The translations under genes were made by a program, and so were the position numbers. The notes beneath the pieces are model-generated. The model was not told the origin of the DNA and did not search any database. It was given only the letters and a program-made list of their open reading frames with translations. Below, piece by piece: positions 1 through 63,271 of a stretch of 64,000 nucleotides of DNA. This stretch comes from an uncultured virus (IMG/VR IMGVR_UViG_3300031993_000050). Lineage: Duplodnaviria; Heunggongvirae; Uroviricota; Caudoviricetes. Numbering within the stretch: position 1 is the stretch's first letter; every line of letters starts with the position of its first letter. Where the stretch lies: the IMG/VR virus record IMGVR_UViG_3300031993_000050; one strand, written 5' to 3'.

Positions 1-933
1 GCTATTTAAGTCCCAAACAAATTTTGGATCTATTTGAAACATCATGTTCCGGCAAGTTGATGTAACTGTATCATTAACGTATGGAAAATTAGTTAAATTT
101 ATCATGCCGGCGAATGCTCCGCCAATATCTGTTACTGAAGCGGGTAACTCAGGAAGTGAATCTACTTTAGAGCAACCCCAAAACATACCAGACATATCTT
201 GTACATTGTTACCGTATCCGTTTATTGATGTTATGTTTTCACACCACTCAAAAGCATGTGAAGCATTAACAACTGAATCAGGTAGTGTTGGAACTGAAGC
301 TAACTTAGAACAGTATGCAAATGCACTTTGTAAATTTGTAACTCCGTTTGAAATTTGTGGTGGATTTACTAAGTTTTTACAGTTTTGAAAAATACCATTT
401 GTTTTTGGTACATTAAAAGTTTCAATTACGTCTGCTTCTGTATTACGGAGTAAAGTCATCTGACCCATGTACGGTAACGTAATAGTAACGTTTATACCAT
501 CAACGTTATCTATGGTAGCAGTGCCCATTTTATAATAAGAGCCTTCACCTTCCCACTCATAGTATTCATAGGCGTTTACAACAGCACCGGTGGTGGGTTC
601 AGCATCAACAAATATTTTTGAATACAACATTCCTGACCCATCATCGTCTAAATTATAATATCCACGCTGTGTAATAATAACAGCGGTGTTTCTAACTGAA
701 GCAGGAATGGTCGGTGCATTTGTTAAGTTACTACATTTATAAAAAGCACCTCCTAAGTCAGAAACAGTCGTACTTAAATTAGTAACAGATGTTAAATTCT
801 GACAGTTTGAAAAGGCACGAGAACCATCATTGTTTACGAAAGGCGTGTTATTTGCATTAACACTAACGATATTCATATTGTTAGTAAACGTTCCCTTGTC
901 TAAATAAACTTTATTTACATTTACGATTGACAT
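1..933 (-). CDS. BspA/TpLRR-type leucine-rich repeat protein, putative receptor-binding/adhesin (3' end outside window; absent from ORF track)
   Basis: Manual translation from ATG 933 (SD GAGGT) is open to position 1: MSIVNVNKVYLDKGTF...AFSNCQNLTSV...AFYKCSNLTNAPTIPASV...FQNCKNLVNPPQISNGVTNLQSAFAYCSKLASVPTLPDSV; recurring AFxxCxxL..P.IP.SV repeats. Confidence 0.85.
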   Translation of the reverse strand, partial: MSIVNVNKVYLDKGTFTNNMNIVSVNANNTPFVNNDGSRAFSNCQNLTSVTNLSTTVSDLGGAFYKCSNLTNAPTIPASVRNTAVIITQRGYYNLDDDGSGMLYSKIFVDAEPTTGAVVNAYEYYEWEGEGSYYKMGTATIDNVDGINVTITLPYMGQMTLLRNTEADVIETFNVPKTNGIFQNCKNLVNPPQISNGVTNLQSAFAYCSKLASVPTLPDSVVNASHAFEWCENITSINGYGNNVQDMSGMFWGCSKVDSLPELPASVTDIGGAFAGMINLTNFPYVNDTVTSTCRNMMFQIDPKFVWDLNS

Positions 934-942
934 TTTCTACCT

Positions 943-1179
943 CTAAACGTTAGGTACAGTAACATCTGTTGAGTTACCAGTATAGTTTGTAATGATAGCA
1001 TCATCTCCGCTCATTTGATAGTCAAACCCGTCAAGGTCAACTGGAGTAAGTTCTCCTGGAGTAGGTGTTGGTTCTGGATCAAAATCAATTACCTCTGTAT
1101 TACCAAGGTATATTTTGGTGACTTCAACGTCACCAAAATATGAACCGAGAATATCTAAAACACCGAGTTTACTTGCCAT
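943..1179 (-). CDS. small tail-fibre adaptor protein with C-terminal LRR N-cap-like module
   Basis: 78 aa; N-terminal VTKIYLG motif, Pro/Thr linker, C-terminal FDY...AIITNYTGNSTDVTVP. Confidence 0.6.
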   Translation of the reverse strand: MASKLGVLDILGSYFGDVEVTKIYLGNTEVIDFDPEPTPTPGELTPVDLDGFDYQMSGDDAIITNYTGNSTDVTVPNV

Positions 1180-1186
1180 AAGTCAC

Positions 1187-3472
1187 CTATGATGCCTGTT
1201 GTTCTGCTCTGATTAAGTACCAGGTTGTTGAAACCAAAGTACCTGCTTGTTCCATTGCATCGTATTCAGCTTGTGTGCACAGTACAATGTTACGAATATC
1301 TGTTGATGTAACCATGTTCGCAACTGATGTCTGTGTAGCATAGGTTGATGCAGCCTCTGTTTTTGTTAAGTAAGAACTTAACGAGGCAGAAATCTCACCT
1401 AATGCAACAATGGTAACTATATCAGTTGCTACTAATGCTGTTGTAAATACAATGTTGTTAGTACTAATTGCGTAGTCGTTTGTTGATGCTGGATCAACTG
1501 TTGTTTCGCGTTGCAATACACCATTTTTATAGACTAGTATTGCGTCATAATCAGAAAGTGTAAGACCTGTAGCTAAAGTTGCTCCTGTTTGATCTGTAAA
1601 GGACACCACTGTTGGTGCTACACCTGTACCACCACCGCTTACAGTTGCCCATGACGCTGTTGTACCGTCCGTTGTTAAGAACTTACCGGATTGACCTGTT
1701 TGGTCTGGTAATGAGTCACCAGATGCAACAGTCGCCCAGGTACCATCTGATTTCAGATACTTATTTGTATCTGTTGTAGCAGGAGCAGGTACAAGACCTA
1801 CGCTACCAGATGCAGAACCATCGGTACCAACAAAAGTTGAGTACGTTGTATTTGCTGCACTGATTGAATAGGTATGTTCACCTGATGCTGCATCATAGAA
1901 GTCAGTCGGAACTGTAAAGTCCGCCGTCCATCTTGCAGTGCTAGATACACGTAAACCTTGTAAGTATACTAAACCACTTGAACGTAATGAGAAGGCTAAA
2001 CCTTGGCTTTGTGTATGGGCAGAACCTGAGAAGGTTGGGTTGTCCAAGTATTTGCAAAGAACACCGTCTACAAATACGCTAAAGCGTGAGTTTGAAGCAT
2101 CCCACACGTATGCGTAATGGTGCCAATCTGTATCAAGTGTTGGGAAGGCTGATACTGTTACAGCAGATGATTTGTTGCTGAATACTTCAAATGCATACCC
2201 TGCACCATACTCTGCTCCTTCTTGATTATATACGCCAAACTCATATGTATACCCCGACTGACCTGATGCTACGTTTGGAAGTACGATATCTACTGAAGCT
2301 AATGTTGTGTCAGCACATTTTAAGAAATAATCTACTGTAAAGCTTTCTGTTGCATCTACAGATAAGTAGTTATTAAATGCTGCACTACCAACATGATAAC
2401 TCATTAAAGTACCAGCAGTTACCAAGGCATCTGCATTAAAGTGCGGTGCTGCGTTTGAGAAGTCTACCGCATATGTTGAATCAGTAGTCCAAGAGGAAGA
2501 ACCAGAAACTGAATCTTCCAAGTCTTCTGACATCTTGAAGTAAGCTACTGTATCTGAATCAAGTGCACTATTCTCAGTGATTGTTACGTTGTTTCCAGCG
2601 AGTAAGTTTGTCTTTGTGTATACATTAGGTGCGCTTACAGTTGTTCCACTGATTGAGATGTTGGCACCTGCTGTATAGGTTGTATCTGTGAATACTGCAT
2701 CGGCAGGAACTGACTTAGCTAACGAGTAAGTAGTTGCTGTTGCTGTACCATCAGCTGCAATATATACAGGTTGTGTAGCGGAACCAGCGGCTGTTGATTC
2801 TGTATGTGTAACAGCGGTTGCTGTTTGTTGATAACCGGAGAGGTCTACAAACCCAGCTAATACGTCGAATTTGTAAGTACCTGACGTAGGTTCAACTACG
2901 ACAACGTTTGTTCCGGCTGGATATGAGTTACCAGCTCCTTCAACGAAGTCTGCTGTAGTTGTGAAAGAGTCAGTTACGTTGTAAACGTTGCCGAGTACAG
3001 ACGCACCTAAGGTTGGTAAGCTGGCGAATGCTACTGACCCAGCAGGTTTGTATACGGATGAAATTGCCGTGTCGATAGCTGATTTAACCGCCACACCTGA
3101 TTGAGCGTTTGTAGATGTACCATCATAAGTTTGATCTACTGTTACCGCTGCAGGAATGGTAGGTTTGTTTGTTAAGTCGTTATATGACCCTGAGGTTGCT
3201 ACTGTTGCCAATGAGGACTTTGTTGCATATGTTGAAGAAGCATCACTCTTTGACAAGTAAGTTGTACCGGCATCGGTCTTTGTAAGATATGTAGTAGCTG
3301 CGTCTGATTTAGCTAAGTATGTTGAAGCAGCATCTGTTGACGCAAGTTTTTCGTCTACTTTCTCTTCGAGAGTAATGCCAGAATCGGTTGCACCGTAAAC
3401 TACGTTGACACCCTTGGTTATTGGATAAAGAACATCTCTACCACTTTTTAATAAAATATCTTTTTCTGCCAT
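1187..3472 (-). CDS. tail fibre protein with LamG/concanavalin-like domain
   Basis: 761 aa, Thr/Ala/Ser-rich; LATVATSGSYNDLTNKPTIP and LPDQTGQSGKFLTTDGT fibre motifs; LamG-like FTVDYF...WHHYAYV...FVDGV...LRVS.TARW; C-terminal TQAEYDAM...WYLI module. Confidence 0.8.
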   Translation of the reverse strand: MAEKDILLKSGRDVLYPITKGVNVVYGATDSGITLEEKVDEKLASTDAASTYLAKSDAATTYLTKTDAGTTYLSKSDASSTYATKSSLATVATSGSYNDLTNKPTIPAAVTVDQTYDGTSTNAQSGVAVKSAIDTAISSVYKPAGSVAFASLPTLGASVLGNVYNVTDSFTTTADFVEGAGNSYPAGTNVVVVEPTSGTYKFDVLAGFVDLSGYQQTATAVTHTESTAAGSATQPVYIAADGTATATTYSLAKSVPADAVFTDTTYTAGANISISGTTVSAPNVYTKTNLLAGNNVTITENSALDSDTVAYFKMSEDLEDSVSGSSSWTTDSTYAVDFSNAAPHFNADALVTAGTLMSYHVGSAAFNNYLSVDATESFTVDYFLKCADTTLASVDIVLPNVASGQSGYTYEFGVYNQEGAEYGAGYAFEVFSNKSSAVTVSAFPTLDTDWHHYAYVWDASNSRFSVFVDGVLCKYLDNPTFSGSAHTQSQGLAFSLRSSGLVYLQGLRVSSTARWTADFTVPTDFYDAASGEHTYSISAANTTYSTFVGTDGSASGSVGLVPAPATTDTNKYLKSDGTWATVASGDSLPDQTGQSGKFLTTDGTTASWATVSGGGTGVAPTVVSFTDQTGATLATGLTLSDYDAILVYKNGVLQRETTVDPASTNDYAISTNNIVFTTALVATDIVTIVALGEISASLSSYLTKTEAASTYATQTSVANMVTSTDIRNIVLCTQAEYDAMEQAGTLVSTTWYLIRAEQQAS
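3220..3340 (-). repeat. four tandem 10-aa repeats (S/T)DAxxTYLxK within the tail fibre
   Basis: TDAASTYLAK SDAATTYLTK TDAGTTYLSK SDASSTYATK in the translation; boundaries approximate. Confidence 0.8.
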
Positions 3473-3477
3473 TTAAG

Positions 3478-4755
3478 TTACTCTCCTATTTCCTCACCGA
3501 CATATGCAACTGCTGCTTCAAGAGCTGCAATACGGGATTCTAAAGTTGCTACGGCAGCTGCGATGTTTCCTTTAGTAGCGAGCTCATTTGCTTCTACTAA
3601 ACGCTCATTGGCTGCTTGATTTCCTTTTGTATAGTACATGCCCCCTTTTGTAAGGTCAATGCGTGTACCGTTGAACTTGTTTTCGTTGTCTTTCTTTAGA
3701 ACATAGATCTGACCGGCAATACCATTCTCTCCACCATCATTAACTCCGGTGAAAGACCAGGTACCATCTGCGTGCTCAAATTTAGCACCGCCTCCATCAG
3801 TTTCATTGAAAATGAGGGCTTTACCTGATGCACTTGTAAGCTCTTTGTCTACTTTCGTAGCATCTGCAGCTGAACGAGCCGCTGCTTCGGATGCAACTGC
3901 ATCTGTTACATCATGTTTGACTGCTACTTCATTCTCAGGAATTGCTCTTTCTGCAAAAGATTTATTACCAACGGTATAATACATACCGTCGTTTTTAACG
4001 TCAAGTTTAGCACCTGTCCATTTACCACCAACTAAACGGTCTGCATAGATTTGTGCGACTAAGCCATTTTGACCTCCGTCATGCACACCTACGTAAGATT
4101 CAGTACCATCGTTGTGTAAGAATTGTGAACCGCCACCATCTGATTCGTTAAAGATAATTGCTTTACCATTTGTACCGGTAATTTCTTTATCTACCTTTGT
4201 GGCATCAACGGCTAAGCGAACTTGAGCTTCTGCGTCTACAGCGGCTGTTGCAAAGTCTTTTGCATCTTGTAAGATAATTGCGTCTGCTGCTGTTGCAAAA
4301 GCCTCAGCTGCTGAAACTCCTTCTTGTAATTCAGTTTTGGTAGCAAGTGTACTAAAATCAACGAATCCGCCTAGGTTATCCCAAGCGGTTCCGTTCCAAG
4401 CCAGGTTGTCGTTTGCGTTTACATGATGCTCAGCATCTGCTGTTTCTACATTGTAAACGTAACCTGCTTCTTGTTCTGTTAAATTGGTAGGGAGGTCGTT
4501 ATAAGTAGCTACAGAGCCCTGGTATTTGTAAACGGCAGAAATCTTACCATCGACTTCTGTCTTGGTATAATAATTTGTGTTAAGATCGTCTGTTAAGCTT
4601 TCAATTGACGCAGTATTTGCGGCAATGTCTGAAGAGTTTTCAGCTATGTCTCCGTCTAAACGTTCAACGTCAGCATGTAACTCTTCTCTTAATTCATCGA
4701 TCCCTTCTTGTTTACCCTTCTGAGTAAACAGACCTTGAGAGAAGAATGATCCCAT
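3478..4755 (-). CDS. tail fibre/appendage protein with two 114-aa tandem domains
   Basis: 425 aa; coiled-coil ends, VYKYQGSV...GYVYNV module, duplicated DATKVDK...IFNExDGGG...GMYYT domain. Confidence 0.65.
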   Translation of the reverse strand: MGSFFSQGLFTQKGKQEGIDELREELHADVERLDGDIAENSSDIAANTASIESLTDDLNTNYYTKTEVDGKISAVYKYQGSVATYNDLPTNLTEQEAGYVYNVETADAEHHVNANDNLAWNGTAWDNLGGFVDFSTLATKTELQEGVSAAEAFATAADAIILQDAKDFATAAVDAEAQVRLAVDATKVDKEITGTNGKAIIFNESDGGGSQFLHNDGTESYVGVHDGGQNGLVAQIYADRLVGGKWTGAKLDVKNDGMYYTVGNKSFAERAIPENEVAVKHDVTDAVASEAAARSAADATKVDKELTSASGKALIFNETDGGGAKFEHADGTWSFTGVNDGGENGIAGQIYVLKKDNENKFNGTRIDLTKGGMYYTKGNQAANERLVEANELATKGNIAAAVATLESRIAALEAAVAYVGEEIGE

Positions 4756-4756
4756 G

Positions 4757-5035
4757 TTATGCCTCCGTTGTGTCTTGGATTGATGTTACGATACCACACT
4801 CAGAAACGGAGTCTGTTTTGTTTTGATAAACGGCACAAATCCAACGAAATTGTCCTTGAAGAAGGTTAATACCCTCTTTAACTTCGTCTGTGATTTCTGT
4901 CATCTGTTCCAAGGTAGGTTTGTATGTAGCTAAAGAAATGTAAATCTTAGCGGAACCTTTGTACTCCAACGACGGGAGTGGCGTACCACTAGAGTATACG
5001 TTAGCTCTGTAGATTTTATTTGATACCAATTTCAT
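4757..5035 (-). CDS. hypothetical virion protein
   Basis: 92 aa ORF with SD GAGAGG, directly downstream of a motif copy. Confidence 0.6.
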   Translation of the reverse strand: MKLVSNKIYRANVYSSGTPLPSLEYKGSAKIYISLATYKPTLEQMTEITDEVKEGINLLQGQFRWICAVYQNKTDSVSECGIVTSIQDTTEA

Positions 5036-5048
5036 TTATAATACCTCT

Positions 5049-5070
5049 CTATAAACAACCTATGTGTTCA
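5049..5070 (-). promoter_or_regulatory. phage-specific promoter-like motif, copy 1
   Basis: minus strand TGAACACATAGGTTGTTTATAG, intergenic. Confidence 0.8.
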
Positions 5071-5073
5071 ATT

Positions 5074-5463
5074 TTAGTCCTTCAGTTCGAAATGAGGTTT
5101 GTCGACGATAGATGTCCAACTACCGCCCCAGACCATCTTTACACCTAACTGTTCTGCCTTTTCCAAGACGATCCCGGCTAGTTCAGCCCATGCAGGATCG
5201 TCGGAGTTGATTTCTTTATTCTCAAGACGTGGAACCGGCCACGGCCAAATATCTATTGCCTTTGATGGGAAATAGTTATGTTTGCTATTTGGCCACTTTA
5301 CTCTAGAAGTACCTTTATAAAACATTACGTCCTGGTCTTCTTTTGTTCTGTACCCTTCTATGATTGTAAAATCGTGTGTTTTAATTACCTCAAGCATTAC
5401 CCGTTGGATGTCTGGATGGCATTGCATGAGCTTATTTAATGACTTTTGTGATAATTCAGGCAT
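5074..5463 (-). CDS. endolysin, peptidase M15 family (L-Ala-D-Glu peptidase, T5-like)
   Basis: LSQKSLNKL..CHPD, EGYRT, SKH...AID, WGGSW...DKPHFEL motifs; catalytic domain only. Confidence 0.9.
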   Translation of the reverse strand: MPELSQKSLNKLMQCHPDIQRVMLEVIKTHDFTIIEGYRTKEDQDVMFYKGTSRVKWPNSKHNYFPSKAIDIWPWPVPRLENKEINSDDPAWAELAGIVLEKAEQLGVKMVWGGSWTSIVDKPHFELKD

Positions 5464-5464
5464 G

Positions 5465-7255
5465 TTATTCCTCCTCTACCGGCGTAGATTCCGTTGTGTC
5501 GAAACCTATGACGTGGTGGTTTTGCTGCATGATTATGTTGTTAATTGCTGTTATAGCAGCATTTACTGTCACTAAAGCTGCTTCTACATTAGCGAGACGT
5601 GCTTCTATAGATGACGGACTTTGTGGATTTGTGATAGCATCAATCTCACCTTGAAGTTGCTGTGTTGCCGTTGACAGTGCTGTTGCTGCATTTGACGCTG
5701 CTGTTGAAACAGCTGTATATACGGCACCGGACTGAATCAGTTTAACAGACCCTTGTGTAACTGTTGTATCTATAACTGATGTATCAATAGTATTAACAGA
5801 GAATTCAGCTCCGTTAGGGGTATTTTGTAGAGTTAAACCGTTTCCGGCAATATAAACATCTACAAGGTCTGTTGCATCAATTTCAATCTCATCACCATTT
5901 GCTAGAACCAAAACAATCTTTTTGGTAGCTGAATTGTAATAACCGTGGTCTACGAGTAATTCCATCGGTAAGTCGACAACGGCTGGTACGCCAGAATCAC
6001 GGGTAAAGGTTAATTTACCTGTTGTAGCATTATACGTTACGCCATTAAATGTTGGGTTAATACGTTCTGATAACGATGTATCTTCAGTTTGTAATCCACT
6101 GATTGCTAAATCAACGCCGTCTAAATGCTCGTCAATTTCTGCGATGTTGCCGTTTACCTGTGCAATCTGACCGTCTACATAATCAGTTACGGTATCGTGT
6201 ACGTCTACAATACGACCTTGTACCCATGCTGTATTTGGTACTGTCGTGTCAGAAGAATTATCTGAAAGTTCTTCTGCTGTTTTTAATCCGGCTGAAAAGG
6301 TCTTTACACCAGAAACTGTTTCTTCCCCTGCTTTATGAACGGCAGCTGCATCATTAGCTATAATCGTTGCATTGATTGTATCAATAGCGTCACCATGCTC
6401 AGTAGCAGTTGTTTCAAGTGTTTCAATACGAGATTCGTGGTCTGCAATGTCTGCTTCGTCAGCAATTACACGTGCTTCAAGTCCTTCAATGTCTGCTTCC
6501 AGCTCGTCATCTTTTTCAATACGGGCTGCACTTTCTTCACTTACAGCGTTAAGAATTGCTGTTGTTCTGTCAGCTACTTCTTGTTCAATGGCTGCAGCAA
6601 TTGCCTCATTCCTGTTAACAACCTCTGCTTCATCAGCGGCTGTACGATTATGAATTTCTGTTTCAATTGCTTGAGTTAGTTCATTTACGTCGTGTATGCG
6701 AGCTTCTGTCTCTGCAGCAAGTGCTGCTTCTTCTGCTGCTGTATGAGCATTAAATTCATCTCTGTATACATAATCCTTGTCAAGAAAGGCAGTTGCCATG
6801 TCCTTTCCTGGATATACAGATGTGATTTCACCGTTCTCAACAACAAAGCTGCCAATGCGATAGCCTTCATTAAATGCCGACGCAGCTGCTGAATAATCCG
6901 TAGATGTTGAATAAAACGGAAATACTGGTGTTAAAGATTTGGAGACTAAAATATCTGTTGCGAGTCCGTTAGATACAGCAAATACATACCAGTTCCCGTC
7001 TTCAAAAGTTTCTTCTGCCGGTACAGCACCGCTTCCAGCACCAACGTCAAATAATGTTGTTACATCTTTTCTGTAATCTTCTGTGAGTTTGTAGAGACGG
7101 TTGTTTGCCATCACAAACCCTTGAGCAATATACAGAGTTGTTCCGGAGAATGTCAATGTCATCCCAGTAGGGGCATTGTATCCACCAGAGCTAATATCGC
7201 TGTACGGAATTTGGTCAAGTACAACATCCACGCTTACTAAATCGCTACTATTCAT
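5465..7255 (-). CDS. coiled-coil tail fibre/whisker-like protein
   Basis: Likely start ATG 7255 (SD AGAGGGAG); long acidic heptad region, AVHKAGEETVSGVKTF fibre motif. Confidence 0.65.
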   Translation of the reverse strand: MNSSDLVSVDVVLDQIPYSDISSGGYNAPTGMTLTFSGTTLYIAQGFVMANNRLYKLTEDYRKDVTTLFDVGAGSGAVPAEETFEDGNWYVFAVSNGLATDILVSKSLTPVFPFYSTSTDYSAAASAFNEGYRIGSFVVENGEITSVYPGKDMATAFLDKDYVYRDEFNAHTAAEEAALAAETEARIHDVNELTQAIETEIHNRTAADEAEVVNRNEAIAAAIEQEVADRTTAILNAVSEESAARIEKDDELEADIEGLEARVIADEADIADHESRIETLETTATEHGDAIDTINATIIANDAAAVHKAGEETVSGVKTFSAGLKTAEELSDNSSDTTVPNTAWVQGRIVDVHDTVTDYVDGQIAQVNGNIAEIDEHLDGVDLAISGLQTEDTSLSERINPTFNGVTYNATTGKLTFTRDSGVPAVVDLPMELLVDHGYYNSATKKIVLVLANGDEIEIDATDLVDVYIAGNGLTLQNTPNGAEFSVNTIDTSVIDTTVTQGSVKLIQSGAVYTAVSTAASNAATALSTATQQLQGEIDAITNPQSPSSIEARLANVEAALVTVNAAITAINNIIMQQNHHVIGFDTTESTPVEEE

Positions 7256-7586
7256 TGACAACTCCCTCTTTAACGTAGAATGGTCCTGACGCACATTCAT
7301 TTACATACGATTCCCGTCTTACTTGAAGTCCCCACCAGTAAGTGGCTACAGGTATTTTAGTATCTTCCGGGAGCATTGTAACTGTAACTTCATTTGTTTC
7401 AGTATTTTCTACGATTTTAGAAATTAGGGCAGATGAATCAGGATCTTTTTTTGATTTCTTAACCATGAAAACAAACGTATAGCCGGTTACATTAAACGGA
7501 GTACGGTCTGGACCATACATACGAAATTTAAGACTACCAGTATTACCTTGAACTATACTTACAGTCCGTCCATCTAGCCTAATCAT
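7248..7586 (-). CDS. BppU N-terminal-like / fibre-attachment protein
   Basis: 112 aa; I.QGNTGSL.F...PFNVTGYT..F.VK...PEDT...YWWGLQV pattern typical of small Ig-like baseplate adaptors. Confidence 0.55.
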   Translation of the reverse strand: MIRLDGRTVSIVQGNTGSLKFRMYGPDRTPFNVTGYTFVFMVKKSKKDPDSSALISKIVENTETNEVTVTMLPEDTKIPVATYWWGLQVRRESYVNECASGPFYVKEGVVNE

Positions 7587-7880
7587 TTAATTACCTCGTT
7601 TATAAATATATGTATCTATTTTGTTTTCTGTACGAACAACATGCTCTTTAATTTCTTTAAGAGTAGTACTTGTTTCTACAGTTGTTTTTTCTAAAGCACG
7701 GATACGTGTTTCGTGCTCTGCTACCTGAGCGGTAGCGTGCGTTGTATTGGCATAAAATAAAATCATTGTGACAATCAGCGCAGCCATACCGGAGATCACA
7801 CCCCAGTATTTAACAATTGAATCGCGGTGACGCTTTTCCATCTCTTTGCATACATCGCAACCTTCTGCATCCTTACACAT
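7587..7880 (-). CDS. putative holin / single-TM membrane protein
   Basis: One hydrophobic helix (WGVISGMAALIVTMILFYA) followed by a coiled coil (HETRIRALEK); near the endolysin. Confidence 0.5.
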   Translation of the reverse strand: MCKDAEGCDVCKEMEKRHRDSIVKYWGVISGMAALIVTMILFYANTTHATAQVAEHETRIRALEKTTVETSTTLKEIKEHVVRTENKIDTYIYKRGN

Positions 7881-7881
7881 T

Positions 7882-8577
7882 TTAGTCTCCTATATTAGGA
7901 ACCGTTGTATCGGTATCCTGTCCTACATAACCTGTAATGGTGGCATCGTTAGCTTCGTCAATTGTGTACTCATATCCTGCAAAATCAACTGGATGAAGAT
8001 CCGGTTCAGGAGTAGGAGGAGTTGGCGGAACTGGTGCAGGTGTAGCACCATCAACAAGCTTATCCTTCAAAATAAAATATGACCCTGCAAATCTACAATC
8101 TGGGATCTTAGCAATGCTGACAATTATCTCAGTAACTCCATCTGTATTTTTCTTTACGAAAATATCTTGTGGAATAACTTCTCTCTTGTGCTGAGCGTTG
8201 TTAATTTCCCATAACTTCAAAATAAAATCATTAACCGGATTCACAACCGGTATTCTCAATTCAAACGTATCGTCTTCGACTGTATCCTGGTCTGTCCATG
8301 ACGTAGCTGTTGATGTGAATGTGCCTTCAATTGCCTTTGTTGAATACGAATCAATTTGTACCCAACATCCTAAAAGGTCTTCATTGTTTGTAGCAATTAT
8401 AGATACGCCATCATCTACAGGCATCTTGGTAGCGTCTTCGTATTCAACGTACTGGTACATGGTCTTGTTTTCTAAAACCAAAGACATGTTACCGGGGAAC
8501 GCATTTACTTGTGCACGCAAATCATCAAGTGTGCCTACTGTTAAGTACCTGAGTTGTATCTGTGCTACGTTAGACAT
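7882..8577 (-). CDS. putative fibre/baseplate adaptor with C-terminal LRR N-cap-like module
   Basis: 231 aa; Pro-rich linker then PVDFAGYEYTIDEANDATITGYVGQDTDTTVPNI. Confidence 0.55.
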   Translation of the reverse strand: MSNVAQIQLRYLTVGTLDDLRAQVNAFPGNMSLVLENKTMYQYVEYEDATKMPVDDGVSIIATNNEDLLGCWVQIDSYSTKAIEGTFTSTATSWTDQDTVEDDTFELRIPVVNPVNDFILKLWEINNAQHKREVIPQDIFVKKNTDGVTEIIVSIAKIPDCRFAGSYFILKDKLVDGATPAPVPPTPPTPEPDLHPVDFAGYEYTIDEANDATITGYVGQDTDTTVPNIGD

Positions 8578-9063: not shown

Positions 9064-9891
9064 TTAACTCCTCAACTTAAAAGCAACTGAACAATCAATT
9101 GTTTCACCTGCTTCACTCTGAACAATTACTTTCACAAAGAAAGCGTCTGCTGCAAATGGTGCAGCTTCAATTGTGATGCCTGTAAGAGCATAAATACGCT
9201 CTTCTGGTAAATAGTCTTCTGGTTGATTTTGTATTAAGTTACGAACGGCATCTGAAATCGTAGCTTGCATAACGATACGTAAATCGTCTGTAATTACTTT
9301 ACCAACCATGTAGTTTAGTTCTGACCCGAAACTATAATCGGATACACAAGAACGGATCGGTTGTAACAAGGCTTTGACAACACGTTGTTTGATCTTGTCA
9401 CGTCCGGTCACGTAAGCAAAACTACCTGTATCTAAAACAGCCAAATCTACTACAAAGTTTTTACCTCCACAGCGAGGACAATTCTTTGAATCGCAGTAGA
9501 AGTCAACTAAATAAATATTTTGTGGTACCAGGTCCGGGTTAGGATCCACGGTACGATATTCACCTGGAAGTACATCGAACTTGATTGTACGAGGTGAAAT
9601 AAAAGCAAACCCTCCAATGCCTATTTTTGCATTGGCCCCGGAAATCGGTGTATCCCATCTCTGTGCACCGCTTCCATTATAAAAGATGTGTGATTGTGCG
9701 TATTCAAAACTCTTTAGTGATTTCAAATACTTTTGCTCATCTTCCCAAGATCTAATAAAAATAGCTCCACGTGACTGAATAGGCTCCACAGGAAATGTGG
9801 CAGTATATTCACCACGTTGTTTTCCATCTATTTTTAATTGGTAGTTCTGTATGCGATGGTCACACAGAGTCACCATTAGTATGTCTTGCAT
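9064..9891 (-). CDS. baseplate wedge protein, gp25/GpW-like C-terminal domain
   Basis: VTGRDKIKQRVVKALL...YSFGSEL pattern; CPRCGG Zn-finger-like motif; adjacent to baseplate J. Confidence 0.65.
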   Translation of the reverse strand: MQDILMVTLCDHRIQNYQLKIDGKQRGEYTATFPVEPIQSRGAIFIRSWEDEQKYLKSLKSFEYAQSHIFYNGSGAQRWDTPISGANAKIGIGGFAFISPRTIKFDVLPGEYRTVDPNPDLVPQNIYLVDFYCDSKNCPRCGGKNFVVDLAVLDTGSFAYVTGRDKIKQRVVKALLQPIRSCVSDYSFGSELNYMVGKVITDDLRIVMQATISDAVRNLIQNQPEDYLPEERIYALTGITIEAAPFAADAFFVKVIVQSEAGETIDCSVAFKLRS

Positions 9892-11300
9892 TAGCCAAGT
9901 ATAATGTCTTCAGCTGAAATACGGATATATTCCAACGGAGACGATTCAATATCTTCTACTCCTTCGGCATTCTTCAAGCTAAAACGTCTCATCGGGAATT
10001 TGACATAGTCAACCCCTTCGGTGTTCTCAACGAGCCCGATAATATCTGACTGACGTAATGTTTGATTTAGTTTGAAGTCATTTACGAAGGTTTCGATTGC
10101 GTATTTAACGCTGTTACGGACTGACAAGGAGTCATATCCGGGTAGTGTTACAATATCAAAATCCATTGCTGCATCTAGTTGATGTGTTGTACGAATTAGT
10201 ACATCTGCTGTTACGATTCTGTTTTCTTCTGAGTCGAATGTTTCTTGAACGTCGTTTACAAGTTTATTATATGTGTAATCAATCGTGTATTTATTTAGGT
10301 CACGAATATTCTCATCGAAGAAGTCTTTGTCCCACACAAGTTTGTCTTTAGAACGAGTGGAAGACGTATAAATGGAAGTTTTGTCTAAATATACATTAAA
10401 TACAGAACCGTTTGAAAAGGAACGACCGTCCGGTAATGTAACAACAACGTCGTGATCAATGTTTACAGGACTCTTTGTAAAATAAACTGTATATGCACCG
10501 TATGTTGGCGTAACCTCTTGTGTAAAAGGTGCGTCAATACTGCCTAAAAGATAGATGTCGATTGTACCTGGACCACGAACAGAAAACTCGTTATCTGGAT
10601 CAACGACAACCGCATCTTTCACGTTAGGGTCTTCGTATACTTTTGCCAAGTAAGAAGCTACGGTACCAAAAACTGTACCACGTAAGCGAAGTCTAATACG
10701 TTCAATAAGTTCTTCTGTTGTCTCCTCTTCAGTACCATTTGTAATGGCTGTTGGGTTATAAACAACAGAAACGCCGCTCACAGAGCCTTTAATTTGGTTA
10801 ATTGCTCCAGCAGCGACGTTGCTTCCTATACCTTCAGCTTGTGCCTGAACGGTTACAGTACATTCATAATAATTTGTAGAAGGATTTAATGTAGTAGTTG
10901 AAGTAATATATCCAGGGGTTACAGTTACATAGGTCTTTATACCTGTTGATTCACCACTTGTTGTTACTGTAGTACCAACTGGGATTGTAAACACCTGACC
11001 ACTTTCTGGACGCTCGGCTGCACCAAAACGAACTACGCCTGTTGCACGCGTAGCTGCAAGACGATAAATGCCGTAAGAAGACCCTAATTTGTCTGCTTCA
11101 TCGCTACTGAAGGCTGTTGCATCCAACAAGTATAAGCGGCGAATACGGTCTTGTTCCGTATATAAAGCTGCTAACTCATCTGAAAAAGCGTCTACGCCAA
11201 TGTCAGTAGTAACGTTACCAGATACCAAATCGATTTTAGGATTATCGTATGCTATTCTGGTTTTTAAGTCTTCTCTAATTTGTTCAGCTGTTTTTTCCAT
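9891..11300 (-). CDS. baseplate J / Mu gp47-like wedge protein
   Basis: YGIYRLAATRATG, IPVGTTV, G.GSNVAAGAI, NGTEEETTEELIERI, RGPGTIDIY motifs. Confidence 0.9.
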   Translation of the reverse strand: MEKTAEQIREDLKTRIAYDNPKIDLVSGNVTTDIGVDAFSDELAALYTEQDRIRRLYLLDATAFSSDEADKLGSSYGIYRLAATRATGVVRFGAAERPESGQVFTIPVGTTVTTSGESTGIKTYVTVTPGYITSTTTLNPSTNYYECTVTVQAQAEGIGSNVAAGAINQIKGSVSGVSVVYNPTAITNGTEEETTEELIERIRLRLRGTVFGTVASYLAKVYEDPNVKDAVVVDPDNEFSVRGPGTIDIYLLGSIDAPFTQEVTPTYGAYTVYFTKSPVNIDHDVVVTLPDGRSFSNGSVFNVYLDKTSIYTSSTRSKDKLVWDKDFFDENIRDLNKYTIDYTYNKLVNDVQETFDSEENRIVTADVLIRTTHQLDAAMDFDIVTLPGYDSLSVRNSVKYAIETFVNDFKLNQTLRQSDIIGLVENTEGVDYVKFPMRRFSLKNAEGVEDIESSPLEYIRISAEDIILG

Positions 11301-22222: not shown

Positions 22223-23752
22223 TTAGATTGTCACCATGAATGAAATGTAGATGTAGTTCAACGGTCTGAGGACTGCGAATGCCATCTTTACGTTCACTCT
22301 GGTCGTGTCTTTAGCATCAGGGGTTACCACGATGTTAGACTCGTCGTAATCTTGTACAAGGCTACCGGTCATCTCATCAAGCATCAACATAATTGCTGTC
22401 TTGATGGCTGTTGGGGTTTTGTTCCGGTCATAGAAGTGCCCAATAAATTCCTTGTCCAAATTGTATCTGATGGTTTTCATTACTTCGTCTTTAATGAGTA
22501 CCACAGATAGTTCACGATTGTTCTGGTTGGTATTGTCAGTTGTTACTGCTTGGTTTACTGTAACTGCTGCATTGCGAGTTACGAGTACTGTTGTACCAGC
22601 TGCGGACATTTTCTCAATCTCTGAGCGAATGTACTCACGGCTTAAACCATAAATACCAGCAGGATTCTCACGTGTTAAAGGCTCAGCAACTGTGCGGTTG
22701 TTGTTTGTTGTCATACCTGCTAATGCGGCAGCTGCATAGATGGAAGATACGCCTGGGAATTCGTGTGAATCACCATTCTCGTCTTCTACTAAGAGTGTTA
22801 CACCTGCAGGAGCAACGTTAACAATGCGTTGTTCTTTGAATGCTTTGGACTGAGCAACTACTGCATCAGGAGCATCATCTAACGCTGCAACCCATGCTAC
22901 ACGTTCTTTACCGTTCTCTGTTGCAGAGTCGATAACTACTTGTTTTGCAAGCATGCTTTGAATTGCTGCATTTTGTGGGATACAAACGATTGTTTGGATC
23001 TCGTAGTCAGAAAGTTTCTTTACAGCTGTTTGTACGTTCGCTGCAGATACCGTTGGTTTGCCTGTTTCAGCATCAACACCAGGTACAACTTCACAAATGT
23101 ACATTACGTTAGCACCGTTGGTAAACATCAAACGGGCTGCTGCTGTAATTTCGTTTAATTTCCACTCACCGTCCTCTTGATAGCATTCCGGACCGTAATA
23201 AGCGGTTACAGAATCGAGGTCATCAAAAACCTTTACTTCATAGTAAGATGAGTCTTTTTTAATTTTTAATGTAACATAATAAGATGCCCCACGGACTGGT
23301 GCCACTGGGTCTGCATCTTCTGCTACTTCTTGGTCTGGATGTAACCAGATAATTTTGTTGCCGTCTACTTTATAGTCGGCTGCAGCTTCGGCAGCTGCTA
23401 CAGCTGCTGCATTTTCTGCATCGATTGCTTCCTTTTGTTCTGGTGTAGCATCCTCTGGATACTCAATTACTTCCGGTGCTTCATATGCCTTGTATTTAGG
23501 CAAGTTAGAACCGTACGCATTGACATAATCAGAAACGCAATAGACTTCCAGAACATTTGCGTAATCGTATTCAAGTACGTCTGTGGATCCTTCTGTTGCG
23601 CGTACTACTGCATGGTTGTTGACGTTAAGCGTGGGCGTAGCATGGCCTACGAGCCCAGCCGCTTTCAATCTTTGTTCAGTAATAGCTAACGCTGGATTCA
23701 CTTCTTCCTGGATGTATACGCCAGGAACTGTTCCTAGTTTAATTGTAGCCAT
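22223..23752 (-). CDS. contractile tail sheath protein
   Basis: N-terminal PGVYIQE, AAALAG, EPLT, C-terminal PLNYIYISF. Confidence 0.92.
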   Translation of the reverse strand: MATIKLGTVPGVYIQEEVNPALAITEQRLKAAGLVGHATPTLNVNNHAVVRATEGSTDVLEYDYANVLEVYCVSDYVNAYGSNLPKYKAYEAPEVIEYPEDATPEQKEAIDAENAAAVAAAEAAADYKVDGNKIIWLHPDQEVAEDADPVAPVRGASYYVTLKIKKDSSYYEVKVFDDLDSVTAYYGPECYQEDGEWKLNEITAAARLMFTNGANVMYICEVVPGVDAETGKPTVSAANVQTAVKKLSDYEIQTIVCIPQNAAIQSMLAKQVVIDSATENGKERVAWVAALDDAPDAVVAQSKAFKEQRIVNVAPAGVTLLVEDENGDSHEFPGVSSIYAAAALAGMTTNNNRTVAEPLTRENPAGIYGLSREYIRSEIEKMSAAGTTVLVTRNAAVTVNQAVTTDNTNQNNRELSVVLIKDEVMKTIRYNLDKEFIGHFYDRNKTPTAIKTAIMLMLDEMTGSLVQDYDESNIVVTPDAKDTTRVNVKMAFAVLRPLNYIYISFMVTI

Positions 23753-23761
23753 CTGTTTCTC

Positions 23762-24427
23762 CTATTTTGAAGGAATTGTAATGGTACGGTTTTTAGTTGG
23801 ATCTATAGGATCCTTCTCTACTATACCATTCATTTTTATTTCTTCAATTAAAATCTTTTCGATACGATCAAAGTCGGTTATTTTGATATTCCAGTTTGTC
23901 ACAAAACTAACTTTAATTTGCTCAACCTGCAACTGCTGCGTACCGATTTGTTTATAACGAGTTCCTTGTAAATCAACACCTACAATTTCAATGTTGCGTT
24001 TCTTCAAAACCCGGGTCCCGATGTGACGTAAAGCGGAACCAACTAAATCTGTTACTCTTCTACGTGAGGATGTATTATAATCGTAAACACCTATATTGCA
24101 ATTAAGAGAATACACCCCGTGAATATTATAGCCCGTAACGACATTTCTAATTTCTCCATTTATTTCCTTGTCCTCACGTATCTCGGTTATCATTTCCTGA
24201 CCGATTACACGATTGTACAAGTTACCTGTAACATCCTCTACAATGACAGAAGGTATATTCATACGCTGGGTATCATTGTATGTAGTTGTAATGTTGATGT
24301 TTGTTTCGGCCTGGTTCTTAGTCCACTTGTAGAAATCTTCTGGTTGCTTTGCGAAGTATTCACGAAGAAACCTTACTAATTCCTGTTGGCTATGAGTTTC
24401 TGCCGCTAAGCTAATTAACTCTTTCAT
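23762..24427 (-). CDS. putative tail terminator/completion protein
   Basis: 221 aa immediately before the sheath; IPSVIVE motif; call rests on gene order. Confidence 0.55.
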   Translation of the reverse strand: MKELISLAAETHSQQELVRFLREYFAKQPEDFYKWTKNQAETNINITTTYNDTQRMNIPSVIVEDVTGNLYNRVIGQEMITEIREDKEINGEIRNVVTGYNIHGVYSLNCNIGVYDYNTSSRRRVTDLVGSALRHIGTRVLKKRNIEIVGVDLQGTRYKQIGTQQLQVEQIKVSFVTNWNIKITDFDRIEKILIEEIKMNGIVEKDPIDPTKNRTITIPSK

Positions 24428-25379: not shown

Positions 25380-25847
25380 TTATAAGACATTTAAGTCTTT
25401 CAAATCGACTTTCAAAGTGCCAACATAGTAATCCTGAGTACTTAAGTACCCGGATTGATCCTTTGCTGTAACCTTGATGTTTGCGTCAAAATTGACCGTG
25501 GCTGCGTTTTTTTCAACGCCTACCACTTCCCCAATATACCCAGCAGGTAAAACTGCTTCTGCAATGGTATATAACGCTGTTGGGGTTTTAATTAAGCAGT
25601 TCGTACTGGCAATTACATCAGCTGATGTTTGAACACGGGAACCAGGGAGCATCGGCTTGTCAGCTTCTTTTTCAAAGCATTTAACTTCCAGTACTGGAAA
25701 TCCGTTTGAAATAAGAAGTTTGTGTAGTTTAGCAATGTCTGCTTTATCTGAAGCCAACACAACATGGACCTCTGTCTTACCGCCGGTAAGTCCTGTTTCT
25801 GTATCTGGCGTATACTCATTCGCCAACTCTGTGATCCAATCTTCCAT
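25380..25847 (-). CDS. hypothetical neck-region protein
   Basis: 155 aa ORF with SD, in operon. Confidence 0.55.
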   Translation of the reverse strand: MEDWITELANEYTPDTETGLTGGKTEVHVVLASDKADIAKLHKLLISNGFPVLEVKCFEKEADKPMLPGSRVQTSADVIASTNCLIKTPTALYTIAEAVLPAGYIGEVVGVEKNAATVNFDANIKVTAKDQSGYLSTQDYYVGTLKVDLKDLNVL

Positions 25848-25856
25848 ACTTTCCCT

Positions 25857-26318
25857 CTATCTACTATATCCGGCACCGTATAAAATACGCATGAAAGAGG
25901 ACATTTGTGCTGTGAACTTCGGATACCCGAGTCCAGCAGGACCAATACCCATACCGTAGTATTTTTTAATGTTCCACTTCATTTGTTTATAACGTTCCAA
26001 AATCTTATCGTTTACGCTGAGTAACTTACCATTACGGTCTAAGGTCATTGTCAGACCGTTATCATTGTACGAGAAGTCGTCAAACGACATGTCTGCTGCT
26101 ACTAAAATCGAAGCTACTGAGGAGCAAGAAAACAAAACTGCCGTCTCCCAAAGTTGGGGGGCGGTGCTTAATGAATAACTGGTCTGAGGGGTCGTATAGT
26201 TAATATCGTCGAGTCCCATTTGTAACCAAATTAACAGTTTGTCATCACAGAGACCCTTTACAAATCTTGCTGGGAGTCCTCCGTTTCTTGCTTTATGCAG
26301 TAACTGTGGTACGTTCAT
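25857..26318 (-). CDS. putative head-tail adaptor
   Basis: 153 aa helical; DD.L..WL...L.DIN..P and FSYNDNGL patterns; position after capsid genes. Confidence 0.55.
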   Translation of the reverse strand: MNVPQLLHKARNGGLPARFVKGLCDDKLLIWLQMGLDDINYTTPQTSYSLSTAPQLWETAVLFSCSSVASILVAADMSFDDFSYNDNGLTMTLDRNGKLLSVNDKILERYKQMKWNIKKYYGMGIGPAGLGYPKFTAQMSSFMRILYGAGYSR

Positions 26319-57459: not shown

Positions 57460-57824
57460 TCTTTTTTCTTACCCATGAATGGATTGGAGGCCGAGAAATC
57501 ATATTCGGATTTTGGTCCTTCATATGGTTCCGGCGTATCTACCAATGTTACATTGGCATCTACGAATTTACCTGTTTGCTTAAGCAATGTTTTAAGAGCC
57601 CCGTACGACGTACGCACCCAATAATTCGTGGAATGGTCTTTACGTGAATAACAAATTTCCGTTATGACATTTCCATCTTTGAGATGGACTGGCCGGGCAT
57701 AAACAATGCAATCTGTGTTGAATAAAAGAGGCTGTCCGTGCTCAGGTGCCGTAGCATCTACGCGGTCAGGCTCGTGTAACTCGTCGTCAAATTCGACTCC
57801 AACATCTTCAAGTTCTATAAACAT
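57456..57824 (-). CDS. hypothetical protein
   Basis: Likely start ATG 57824 (SD GGGAG); the longer ORF-track start lies inside a terminator. Confidence 0.55.
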   Translation of the reverse strand: MFIELEDVGVEFDDELHEPDRVDATAPEHGQPLLFNTDCIVYARPVHLKDGNVITEICYSRKDHSTNYWVRTSYGALKTLLKQTGKFVDANVTLVDTPEPYEGPKSEYDFSASNPFMGKKKE

Positions 57825-57840
57825 AGCTCTCTCCCTAGGT

Positions 57841-57874: not shown

Positions 57875-57896
57875 CATGTTGTCAACAACTTCTTAA

Positions 57897-63262: not shown

Positions 63263-63271
63263 AATTCTCTC

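What the first reader, a model, noticed from the sequence alone, without database searches (positions are those of the whole stretch)
1..8577. Split LRR adhesin: the N-cap sits on two separate adaptor proteins, suggesting a plug-in receptor-binding system
Seen: two otherwise unrelated proteins end in the same module after a Pro-rich linker. 943..1179 ends EPTPTPGELTPVDLDGFDYQMSGDDAIITNYTGNSTDVTVPNV*; 7882..8577 ends PPTPEPDLHPVDFAGYEYTIDEANDATITGYVGQDTDTTVPNIGD*. Known: (F/Y)xY...a.ItgYxG...v.IP is the usual N-terminal cap preceding BspA/TpLRR repeats in the same polypeptide. Here both proteins stop right after the cap, while the LRR protein (ATG 933, own SD) starts with no cap. The 231-aa copy is followed by a holin-like gene, so it has no LRR in cis. 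Inference: the cap works as a docking tag that completes the LRR solenoid in trans, letting LRR heads be mounted at two virion sites or swapped.
Basis: partly seen in the sequence, partly recalled or inferred. Interest (0 to 1): 0.8.

Follow-up and report, generated by a model that had tools for sequence, protein, structure and literature searches.

The report
Split LRR cap docks phage adhesins
In this uncultured phage and several relatives, the short end-piece that normally opens a leucine-rich-repeat binding protein is encoded at the tail end of the preceding protein instead, which probably lets the phage snap binding heads onto its tail, or onto each other, like beads on a string.

Summary
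Two otherwise unrelated proteins (78 aa, 943..1179; 231 aa, 7882..8577, both minus strand) end in the same Pro-linker plus roughly 32-aa module (18/37 identical, E 6e-9). These are the only two copies in 64 kb. The module matches the N-terminal cap of a solved BspA-type LRR (4gt6 residues 14-41). The LRR gene after the 78-aa ORF has no cap of its own.

The split is not an accident. In 8 viral or MAG contigs, 15 of 19 cap-ending ORFs are followed directly by a cap-less LRR gene with its own stop, SD and ATG, in mixed frames. One contig chains five such junctions. A control set of 64 LRR-free fibre loci has no caps.

A predicted complex of the 78-aa cap with the LRR N-terminus scores ipSAE 0.82, against 0.00 for the best control. 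That pass may reflect memory of the cis fold.

The 231-aa cap is a recent in-frame insertion, absent from 9 of 9 relatives, and no LRR gene follows it. Its function is open.

Earlier scan notes on other DNA describe phage LRR cassettes and N-terminal tags. None shown describes cap donation.

The parts
1..933 (-). 5' part of the cap-less BspA/DUF285-type LRR gene. It starts at ATG 933 and runs off the window. Record G001 adds 265 nt, giving P0001 of 399 aa, still open.
   Evidence: Pfam LRR_5 at 59.8 bits against a cutoff of 27.7. The AF2 model is an LRR solenoid whose best structural match is TpLRR 6mlx, Z 19.0, rmsd 3.4, 192 aligned. There is no cap HMM hit. The 43%-identical relative P0011 (660 aa) starts with the same MSIVN....
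934..945 (-). Gene junction: TAG AGG TAG AAA, then ATG. It holds two in-frame stops and an SD-like GAGGT.
   Evidence: The same TAG(G)AGG-N-ATG layout occurs at other junctions of this phage.
946..1041 (-). Cap module of the 78-aa protein (residues 47-78).
   Evidence: Translation. HMM score 44.4. It is the predicted interface with LRR residues 1-30.
1042..1080 (-). Pro-rich linker of the 78-aa protein (residues 34-46).
1081..1179 (-). N-terminal 33 aa of the 78-aa adaptor (contains KIYLGNTEV); its partner is unknown. It has its own SD (AGGTGA) overlapping the stop of the 761-aa gene.
   Evidence: The analogous 74-aa adaptor in L085 has IYYGN-type repeats plus linker plus cap, and sits between a fibre-like gene and a cap-less LRR. 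The sources call the 78-aa ORF a gene.
1187..3472 (-). 761-aa tail-fibre-like protein directly upstream of the adaptor.
   Evidence: PHROG 38190 at 1.8e-22. Residues 130-216 are shared with 64 other viral fibre loci.
8053..8577 (-). Conserved body (residues 1-175) of the 231-aa protein. It lies downstream of the baseplate J, 275-aa and 161-aa genes.
   Evidence: 8 of 8 body relatives end here. Synteny is conserved in L005. AF2 gives a beta-rich fold with pLDDT about 80 for residues 11-171.
7990..8052 (-). Inserted Pro-rich linker (residues 176-196) of the 231-aa protein.
   Evidence: Translation. It is absent from L005 and from 8 of 8 relatives.
7891..7989 (-). Inserted orphan cap (residues 197-229) of the 231-aa protein, followed by GD, TAA, A and then the ATG of the next gene.
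   Evidence: Translation. HMM score 40.6. The junction CCTAATATAGGAGACTAAAATG has the same layout as the true cap-to-LRR junction in L017.
7587..7880 (-). 97-aa protein with one hydrophobic segment. It is the gene that follows the orphan cap, and it is not an LRR.
   Evidence: Its orthologue follows the cap-less 177-aa gene in L005.

Best explanation
Fold complementation serves as a docking device. In this family of uncultured phages the BspA/DUF285-type LRR binding proteins are encoded without their N-terminal beta-hairpin cap. The cap, behind a flexible and often Pro-rich linker, is encoded as the last roughly 30 residues of the protein made from the preceding gene. After translation, the cap of protein A lies onto the open N-terminal end of the LRR solenoid of protein B as its first turn, and so tethers B to A non-covalently.

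In the window, the 78-aa protein is a minimal adaptor made of a 33-aa N-terminal piece, a linker and a cap. It links the LRR head to some virion part, probably the 761-aa fibre encoded just upstream. In relatives the donor can be a long fibre (1171 aa, 1751 aa), a PEGA-domain protein (189 aa), or another LRR protein, which gives chains of up to five LRR 'beads'.

The 231-aa baseplate-side protein acquired a linker plus cap recently. It either offers a second mounting site or is a young recombination scar.

Shown:
- the module, its homology to cis caps, and the absence of a cap in the LRR ORFs;
- the recurrent stop/SD/ATG boundary at one fixed position;
- the insertion in the 231-aa gene.

Inferred:
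- physical docking, which is predicted only;
- virion location;
- receptor binding by the LRR.
For: (a) The module is a cap. Profile A4 has as its best PDB hit 4gt6_A residues 14-41, E 0.0063. The same chain is the best sequence hit of the LRR body (E 3.6e-11). Bacterial-type proteins carry the module in cis, followed by ...IPS..G..V.sIG.

(b) The boundary recurs. Of 24 LRR ORFs with a complete N-terminus in 12 sources, 0 have an internal N-terminal cap. 14 are directly preceded by an ORF ending in the cap: 10 by HMM and 4 degenerate ones seen in alignment A4. L085 adds a 15th junction. These lie on 8 contigs.

(c) All 18 aligned caps stop 2-6 residues after the one invariant Pro.

(d) The polypeptides are separate. 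Every junction has a stop, an SD-like motif and an ATG. Gaps run from -13 to +14 nt, and one junction has 110 nt with a hairpin and T-run. Only 4 of 14 junctions are in frame.

(e) The pattern is offset by one. In L007 the order is 83 aa+cap, then LRR+cap four times, then an LRR without cap. Cap-only adaptors therefore exist, and the last LRR lacks a cap.

(f) In L013 the cap-bearing 48-aa ORF and the LRR gene lie on opposite strands 3.6 kb apart.

(g) Predicted complex of LRR residues 1-300 with cap residues 36-78: score 0.82, best of 3 controls 0.00. That mark was reached by 116 of 157 solved complexes and 2 of 215 mismatched pairs, which applies only roughly because my own alignments were used. 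The runs agree in at least 97% of contacts and partner pLDDT is at least 84. The interface is LRR residues 1-30 with cap residues 42-78.

(h) Cap similarity tracks the next gene's N-terminus (r 0.54, Mantel p 0.0008, 14 junctions) and not its own gene's N-terminus (r -0.25).

(i) Negative control: 64 fibre loci without LRR genes (592 kb, 5888 ORFs) contain 0 caps.
Against: - No experiment supports docking. The complex pass may come from the model's memory of cap plus LRR in one chain in solved structures such as 4gt6, so it shows likeness and not binding.
- 10 of 24 cap-less LRR ORFs have no cap-ending ORF in front of them (L008, L010 first gene, L011 first gene, L012, L013, L015 x3, L016 x2). 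The LRR can evidently exist without an adjacent donor, and the AF2 monomer is confident from residue 11 on.
- 3 of 19 cap-ending ORFs are not followed by an LRR gene (window 231 aa, L011 708 aa, L013 48 aa). One more is cut off by a contig end.
- The correlation can also come from simple linkage of adjacent DNA. It is also helped by the fact that the own-gene N-termini include unrelated adaptor types.
- The cap HMM was seeded from C-terminal matches, so its seeds are circular. However, it was run on all ORFs.
- The N-terminal 33 aa of the adaptor has no identified partner.
Confidence: 0.65

Rival explanations
1. The 231-aa protein's linker and cap are a young recombination scar with no function. 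A donor segment [linker-cap-SD-stop-ATG] from another phage's cap/LRR junction recombined into the end of the 175-aa gene at the TAGGAG...ATG junction, or an LRR gene that once followed was deleted. The tail simply has not decayed yet. This rivals only the 'second mounting site' part of the reading.
For: - 8 of 8 body relatives and the L005 orthologue end at ...KDK(LV/ML).
- P0002 is 99% identical over 174 residues yet lacks the tail. Its 90% cluster holds only these two forms, so the gain or loss is very recent and intactness says little.
- The insert sits exactly between the old last codons and the old ATAGGAG SD.
- The next gene is not an LRR.
- No second LRR gene lies in the 64 kb.
- The tail is unstructured in the AF2 model, with pLDDT below 50 for residues 176-231.
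Against: - The fusion is in frame and keeps every conserved cap position, with an HMM score of 40.6, within the 30-50 range of caps that do precede LRR genes.
- It ends at the same place as the other 17 caps.
- Orphan caps recur elsewhere (L011, L013), and in L013 an LRR gene lies elsewhere in the locus.
- Roughly 116 kb of this roughly 180-kb phage lies outside the window and was not seen.
Confidence: 0.5
2. The cap/LRR gene boundary is real, but the caps are inert leftovers of cassette shuffling. LRR genes are exchanged as ATG-to-stop cassettes, each dragging the next block's cap, and the LRR heads attach to the virion in some other way.
For: 10 of 24 cap-less LRR ORFs lack an adjacent cap donor. 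The LRR monomer folds confidently without a cap. The cap travels with the neighbouring DNA. Earlier scan notes describe recombination of phage LRR cassettes.
Against: - Inert tails would decay or vary in length. Instead all 18 of 18 keep the motif and stop 2-6 residues after the invariant Pro, at 14-53% identity to the window's 78-aa protein.
- Caps sit on five unrelated carrier types: 33-aa and 45-aa peptides, PEGA proteins, fibres over 1100 aa, and a baseplate-side protein.
- A predicted complex exists.
- No caps occur in LRR-free fibre loci.
Confidence: 0.15
3. The cap folds back in cis onto the N-terminus of its own LRR. The proteins would then be circularly permuted LRRs and not a chain.
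For: In the LRR+cap proteins the cap is tethered by a linker to the same polypeptide.
Against: Carriers with a cap but no LRR exist: 78, 231, 83, 189, 74, 48, 1171 and 1751 aa. The last LRR of a chain has no cap, as with the L007 274-aa protein and with P0011. Cap similarity follows the next gene's N-terminus and not its own.
Confidence: 0.05
4. The 78-aa ORF and the LRR ORF are one gene, read through by TAG recoding, suppression or frameshifting.
For: The two ORFs are in frame, separated only by TAG AGG TAG AAA. Reading TAG as a residue also merges four other neighbour pairs in the window.
Against: - 20 of 62 long frames end in TAG, and ORFs of 1328-1470 aa have no TAG.
- No suppressor tRNA was found.
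- Each merged pair has an SD-like motif and an ATG right after the TAG.
- Two stops stand in tandem at this junction.
- 10 of 14 homologous junctions are out of frame or overlapping.
- The 231-aa ORF ends in TAA.
- P0011 is called from the same MSIVN start.
Confidence: 0.03

Closest known systems
BspA/TpLRR-type LRR surface proteins (Pfam LRR_5 PF13306, DUF285 PF03382; solved examples 4gt6, 4fs7, 6mlx)
   Same: Same repeat family and fold (LRR_5 at 59.8 bits; TpLRR Z 19.0). The same cap sequence is found at the N-terminus of 4gt6 and in front of each LRR block of P0010.
   Different: In those proteins the cap and the repeats are one polypeptide. Here a stop codon, an SD and an ATG separate them, and the cap belongs to the preceding protein.
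Branched or adaptor-based receptor-binding-protein systems of phages (K1-5/SP6, G7C, CBA120 types; recalled from general knowledge and named as closest known in earlier scan notes)
   Same: Several binding heads are hung on one virion through short conserved docking elements, and the heads are exchangeable by recombination at the docking element.
   Different: There the head carries an N-terminal docking peptide or domain that binds a folded adaptor. Here the carrier donates a piece of the head's own fold. No such docking domain was found by Pfam or PHROG in the window's proteins.
Donor-strand complementation of chaperone-usher pilus subunits (recalled from general knowledge)
   Same: An incomplete fold in one subunit is completed by a short element donated by the neighbouring subunit, giving ordered head-to-tail chains.
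   Different: Pili use an Ig-like pilin fold, an N-terminal donor strand, and a chaperone and usher. Here the fold is an LRR solenoid end, the donor is a C-terminal hairpin, and no chaperone is known. The complementation here is predicted only.
DUF7941 'fibre cloud' proteins of the jumbo phage Goslar (bioRxiv 10.64898/2026.04.21.720040; passages of section 12 read)
   Same: Head-to-tail assembly is predicted by AlphaFold. One protomer's linker and C-terminal part docks on the N-terminal domain of the next, and some members carry LRR or carbohydrate-binding heads.
   Different: The module is different (DUF7941). Docking is between complete domains and not by completing a split fold. No Pfam family of that kind hit the window's proteins.

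Membership tests
BspA-type LRR (Pfam LRR_5, PF13306) | Sequence match above Pfam's gathering score | tested here: met
   Window LRR ORF scores 59.8 bits against a cutoff of 27.7, with two stretches.
BspA-type LRR (Pfam LRR_5, PF13306) | LRR solenoid fold of the TpLRR/BspA class | tested here: met
   AF2 model (mean pLDDT 74, residues 11-300 mostly above 80). Best structural match is 6mlx_B at Z 19.0, rmsd 3.4, 192 aligned. This is a model, not a structure.
BspA-type LRR (Pfam LRR_5, PF13306) | N-terminal cap hairpin (F/Y-x-Y...I-T-x-Y-x-G...V-x-I-P) in the same polypeptide as the repeats | tested here: not met
   0 of 25 LRR ORFs in 12 sources have the cap within their first 80 residues. The cap is found at the C-terminus of the upstream ORF for 14 of the 24 with a complete N-terminus.
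Stop-codon-recoded phage (TAG read as an amino acid) | In-frame TAG inside conserved genes, TAG rare as a terminator, suppressor tRNA | tested here: not met
   20 of 62 long frames end in TAG. Four ORFs of 1328-1470 aa have no TAG. One tRNA call was made and none is a suppressor.
Branched RBP systems with N-terminal docking domains | Recognisable docking or anchor domain on the head or adaptor (for example T4 gp10-like) | tested here: not met
   No Pfam or PHROG family of that kind in the 78-aa, 231-aa or LRR proteins. Absence from two profile libraries is weak evidence.
Donor-strand/fold complementation assemblies | An incomplete fold of one subunit completed by an element of the neighbour | tested here: inconclusive
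   Predicted complex at 0.82 against a best control of 0.00, with interface at LRR residues 1-30. The pass may be memory of the cis fold, and there is no experiment.
Donor-strand/fold complementation assemblies | Physical presence of donor and acceptor in one particle | not testable with these tools
   Needs virion mass spectrometry or cryo-EM.

The most novel reading that the evidence does not exclude
Phages of this group build heteromeric 'beads-on-a-string' adhesin fibres by cap donation. Each LRR protein ends in the cap that completes the next LRR. The gene order then writes the order of heads along a non-covalent chain, and any virion protein can be turned into a mounting point simply by acquiring about 50 codons (linker plus cap), as the 231-aa protein did recently. 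This would be a new assembly principle for virion fibres, the solenoid counterpart of donor-strand complementation in pili, and a natural split-protein docking tag.
Probability: 0.4. Interest if true: 0.85.

Novelty: new variant of a known kind. Interest (0 to 1): 0.78.

Why it matters
How phages with many interchangeable binding heads fix those heads to the particle is known for only a few cultured systems. All of those use dedicated docking domains.

Here the comparative pattern points to a different and very economical trick. A fold is cut at its first turn, and that turn is put on the carrier.

If true, it explains three things:
- why gene callers see 'cap-less' LRR genes and tiny ORFs in uncultured phage tail loci;
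- how chains of different LRR heads could assemble in a defined order;
- how a new mounting site can arise in one recombination step, as with the 231-aa protein compared with its 99%-identical 175-aa variant.

It is directly testable by co-expression. It would also offer a natural, orthogonal family of short protein-docking tags.

Tried and rejected
- **TAG recoding or read-through.** Rejected.
- **phmmer of the 231-aa tail against PDB.** It gave designed 'Pizza' beta-propellers at E 1e-10. Rejected as an artefact of summing six weak repeats (each stretch i-E 23-51). The 18-sequence profile does not find them and finds 4gt6 instead.
- **megablast of window 1-9000 against GenBank phages.** No match.
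- **tblastn of the LRR against GenBank phages.** Only a 26%-coverage hit in Synechococcus phage S-CBWM1.
- **Word-based search for longer (fused) relatives of the 78-aa protein.** None among 59 candidates, which is weak evidence.
- **Viral-contig scans with the 231-aa protein, the LRR and P0011.** They found only the window's own record or nothing.
- **Alignment A1.** Too divergent for a locus scan.
- **Foldseek of the 231-aa model against PDB.** No match at E <= 0.001.
- **ESM Atlas.** Only sub-0.9 leads to small viral proteins, some with Mtd_N or Gp53-like_C.
- **Window's own assembly.** Not held, so the 3' end of the LRR gene and whatever follows it could not be read.
- **Complex of the 231-aa cap with the LRR.** Not run, because only one job was allowed.
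- **Literature.** Four full-text searches listed no paper on an LRR cap supplied in trans or on cap-ending phage proteins. I saw listings only, apart from passages of two papers. No supplements were looked at.
Full report
**Setting.** The window is part of a large uncultured myovirus-type phage. The longest contig carrying these proteins is 180,172 bp. TerL is 30% identical to that of Bacillus phage G. All genes lie on the minus strand.

The finding covers the distal end of the tail module. The gene order is:
- baseplate J (9891..11300);
- 275-aa and 161-aa proteins;
- the 231-aa protein (7882..8577);
- a 97-aa protein with one hydrophobic segment;
- a 112-aa protein;
- a 611-aa fibre;
- an M15 endolysin;
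- 92-aa and 425-aa proteins;
- a 761-aa fibre (1187..3472);
- the 78-aa ORF (943..1179);
- an LRR gene that starts at 933 and runs off the window.

The nearest held record (G001) is identical over 1-9000 and adds 265 nt, so the LRR protein (P0001) is known for 399 residues and is still open.

**Observation.** Both quoted C-termini are present. BLASTP gives one shared segment, 18/37 identities, E 6e-9. Regex and HMM scans of all six frames find the module only at these two places in 64 kb. The LRR ORF matches Pfam LRR_5 at 59.8 bits against a cutoff of 27.7.

**Is the 78-aa/LRR break real?** The two ORFs are in frame, separated by TAG AGG TAG AAA, so I tested TAG recoding. Reading TAG as a residue merges this pair and four other neighbour pairs. 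Several results argue against recoding:
- 20 of 62 long minus-strand frames end in TAG.
- ORFs of 1328, 1400, 1404 and 1470 aa contain no TAG.
- Every merged pair shows TAG followed by an SD-like (G)AGG and an ATG.
- The only tRNA call is not a suppressor.

TAG is therefore a stop, and TAG(G)AGG-N-ATG is this phage's usual coupled junction. The 231-aa ORF ends in TAA. Three sources call the 78-aa ORF a gene.

**What the module is.** An exhaustive phmmer search with the 231-aa protein found 9 proteins at E <= 0.001. One of them (P0010, 2043 aa) matches only the tail, five times, each time directly in front of an LRR_5 block. A profile of 18 such tails (A4) has as its best PDB hit residues 14-41 of 4gt6, the N-terminus of an LRR_5 cell-surface protein (E 0.0063). 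4gt6 is also the best sequence hit of the window's LRR body. Among 139 stored proteins, the profile finds the module at the N-terminus or between blocks of bacterial-type LRR proteins, followed by the usual first repeat. It finds the module at the extreme C-terminus of six phage-type proteins.

**The LRR has no cap of its own.** No cap HMM hit falls in the first 80 residues of any of 25 LRR ORFs. The AF2 model of P0001 (23-row alignment, mean pLDDT 74) begins with repeats. Residues 1-10 have pLDDT 62, a beta-rich insertion spans 84-180, and residues 302-399 are poorly modelled. Its best structural match is TpLRR (Z 19.0, rmsd 3.4, 192 aligned). The closest relative, P0011 (43% identity, 660 aa, on a 137.7-kb contig), starts with the same MSIVN... 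and ends without a cap.

**Relatives.** Of 772 LRR homologues I read only the top 8. Locus scans then gave 13 viral loci on 12 contigs and one contig binned with a Clostridia MAG.

- **L007** carries 83 aa ending in the cap, then a 399-aa cap-less LRR ending in a cap, then 349-, 409- and 564-aa LRRs each ending in a cap, then a 274-aa LRR without one.
- **L017** has a fibre (1751 aa in full, P0133) ending in the cap, followed by three LRRs that each end in a Pro-linker and a degenerate cap.
- **L018** has a 1171-aa protein ending in the cap, then an LRR.
- **L019** has a 189-aa PEGA-domain protein ending in the cap, then an LRR.
- **L010** has two degenerate junctions.
- **L085** has a fibre-like gene, then a 74-aa protein (IYYGN-type repeats, linker, cap), then a cap-less LRR. 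This is the same layout as the window's 761-aa, 78-aa and LRR genes.

Counts:
- Of 24 LRR ORFs with complete N-termini, 14 are directly preceded by a cap-ending ORF and 10 are not. L085 adds a 15th junction.
- Of 19 cap-ending ORFs, 15 are followed by an LRR gene and 3 are not (window 231 aa; L011 708 aa, followed by a 187-aa non-LRR; L013 48 aa). One is cut by the contig end.
- In L013 the LRR gene lies on the other strand, 3.6 kb away.
- All 18 aligned tails stop 2-6 residues after the single invariant Pro.
- Every junction has a stop, an SD-like motif and an ATG. Only 4 of 14 are in frame, and one has a 110-nt spacer with a hairpin and T-run.
- As a control, 64 fibre loci fetched through the 761-aa protein (592 kb, 5888 ORFs) hold no LRR gene and no cap.

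**Docking test.** A predicted complex of LRR residues 1-300 with residues 36-78 of the adaptor scored 0.82, with the best of 3 controls at 0.00. That mark was reached by 116 of 157 solved complexes and 2 of 215 mismatched pairs, which applies only roughly because my own alignments were used. The runs agree in at least 97% of contacts and the partner's pLDDT is at least 84. The cap strands (residues 60-63 and 73-75) pair with LRR residues 8-12 and 24-30, meaning the cap is placed as the first turn of the solenoid. Because cap and LRR occur in one chain in solved structures, this pass may be memory of that fold. It shows likeness, not binding.

**Co-variation.** Over 14 junctions, cap similarity correlates with the similarity of the next gene's N-terminus (r 0.54, Mantel p 0.0008). 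It does not correlate with the N-terminus of its own gene (r -0.25). In L017 two near-identical caps precede two near-identical LRR starts, although they sit on genes with different starts. This fits a co-evolving interface, but plain linkage of adjacent DNA would give the same result.

**The 231-aa protein.** Its 8 body relatives (162-231 aa) all end at ...KDKLV or its equivalent. One of them (P0002) is 99% identical over 174 residues, and the two are the only members of their 90% cluster. A 67%-identical metagenomic orthologue (L005) keeps the gene order 161 aa, 177 aa, 97 aa, 112 aa.

The DNA alignment shows about 159 nt inserted in the window between the last codons and the old ATAGGAG SD of the next gene. 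The new junction, CCTAATATAGGAGACTAAAATG, has the layout of a true cap-to-LRR junction in L017. At DNA level the insert is homologous to, but diverged from, the 78-aa gene. It is therefore not a recent internal duplication.

The AF2 model has a confident beta-rich body (residues 11-171) and an unstructured tail. No fold match was found. No second LRR gene lies in the window.

The tail is a very recent gain. I put a functional second mounting site and a neutral scar at about even odds.

**Comparison and novelty.** The repeats belong to the BspA/TpLRR family, but one of its usual features, the cis cap, is not met. Functionally the nearest systems are phage adaptor and branched RBP systems, and donor-strand complementation in pili. 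Both comparisons are recalled from general knowledge.

The Goslar preprint proposes AlphaFold-based head-to-tail docking of DUF7941 proteins, some with LRR heads (passages read). That involves a different module and no split fold.

Four literature searches listed nothing on a trans-supplied LRR cap. Earlier notes of this scan, on other DNA, describe phage LRR cassette arrays and N-terminal tags. None shown describes C-terminal cap donation.

I rate this a new variant of a known kind (modular attachment of phage binding heads) with an undescribed docking principle.

Noticed in passing
window 22223..24427, 25380..26318, 50589..55523, 62897..63940 (minus strand): Four further neighbour pairs are in frame and separated by a single TAG (221+509 aa, 153+155 aa, 1404+239 aa, 222+121 aa). 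The 509-aa member carries a tail-sheath C-terminal domain. Each TAG is followed by an SD-like motif and an ATG, so I read them as coupled genes. Whether any pair is one protein in relatives was not checked.
   Followed up: partly
window 8331..8423 (minus strand): ARAGORN calls a 93-nt 'tRNA-Cys (aca)' inside the coding region of the 231-aa gene. It is probably a false positive. It is the only tRNA call in 64 kb.
   Followed up: no
P0012 (695 aa, LRR homologue), residues 569-692: A cap-less LRR protein whose C-terminus has a weak, sub-threshold match to Pfam Intein_splicing (19.7 bits against a cutoff of 35.8). This is a possible Hint-type domain on a phage LRR head.
   Followed up: partly
L011 6927..9053, L012 4715..7375, P0131: Two-block LRR proteins keep a degenerate cap in cis between the blocks (for example ...LLYEYLG..D.VVP...). 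Split and fused cap/LRR junctions therefore coexist in the same phage group.
   Followed up: partly
window 1081..1179; L085 5677..5901: The N-terminal parts of the two mini-adaptors share a short (I/V)Y(L/Y)GN.E(I/V) strand motif, single in the window and three times in L085. Both follow a fibre-like gene whose product ends in ...(W/Y)Y(L/F)(I/V).... This may be the other half of the adaptor's docking. An earlier scan note (e1-5348613) mentions an (I)LG(G)Y N-terminal tag, and the 78-aa protein has ILGSY at residues 10-14.
   Followed up: no
window 56273..60179 (minus strand): Anaerobic ribonucleotide reductase NrdD (538 bits) and a radical-SAM activase-like gene lie next to it. This fits a phage of anaerobes.
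   Followed up: no
L085 5908..7532: The LRR gene behind the 74-aa adaptor is broken into two overlapping ORFs (268 and 303 aa) in this MAG contig. The cause is a frameshift or an assembly error.
   Followed up: no
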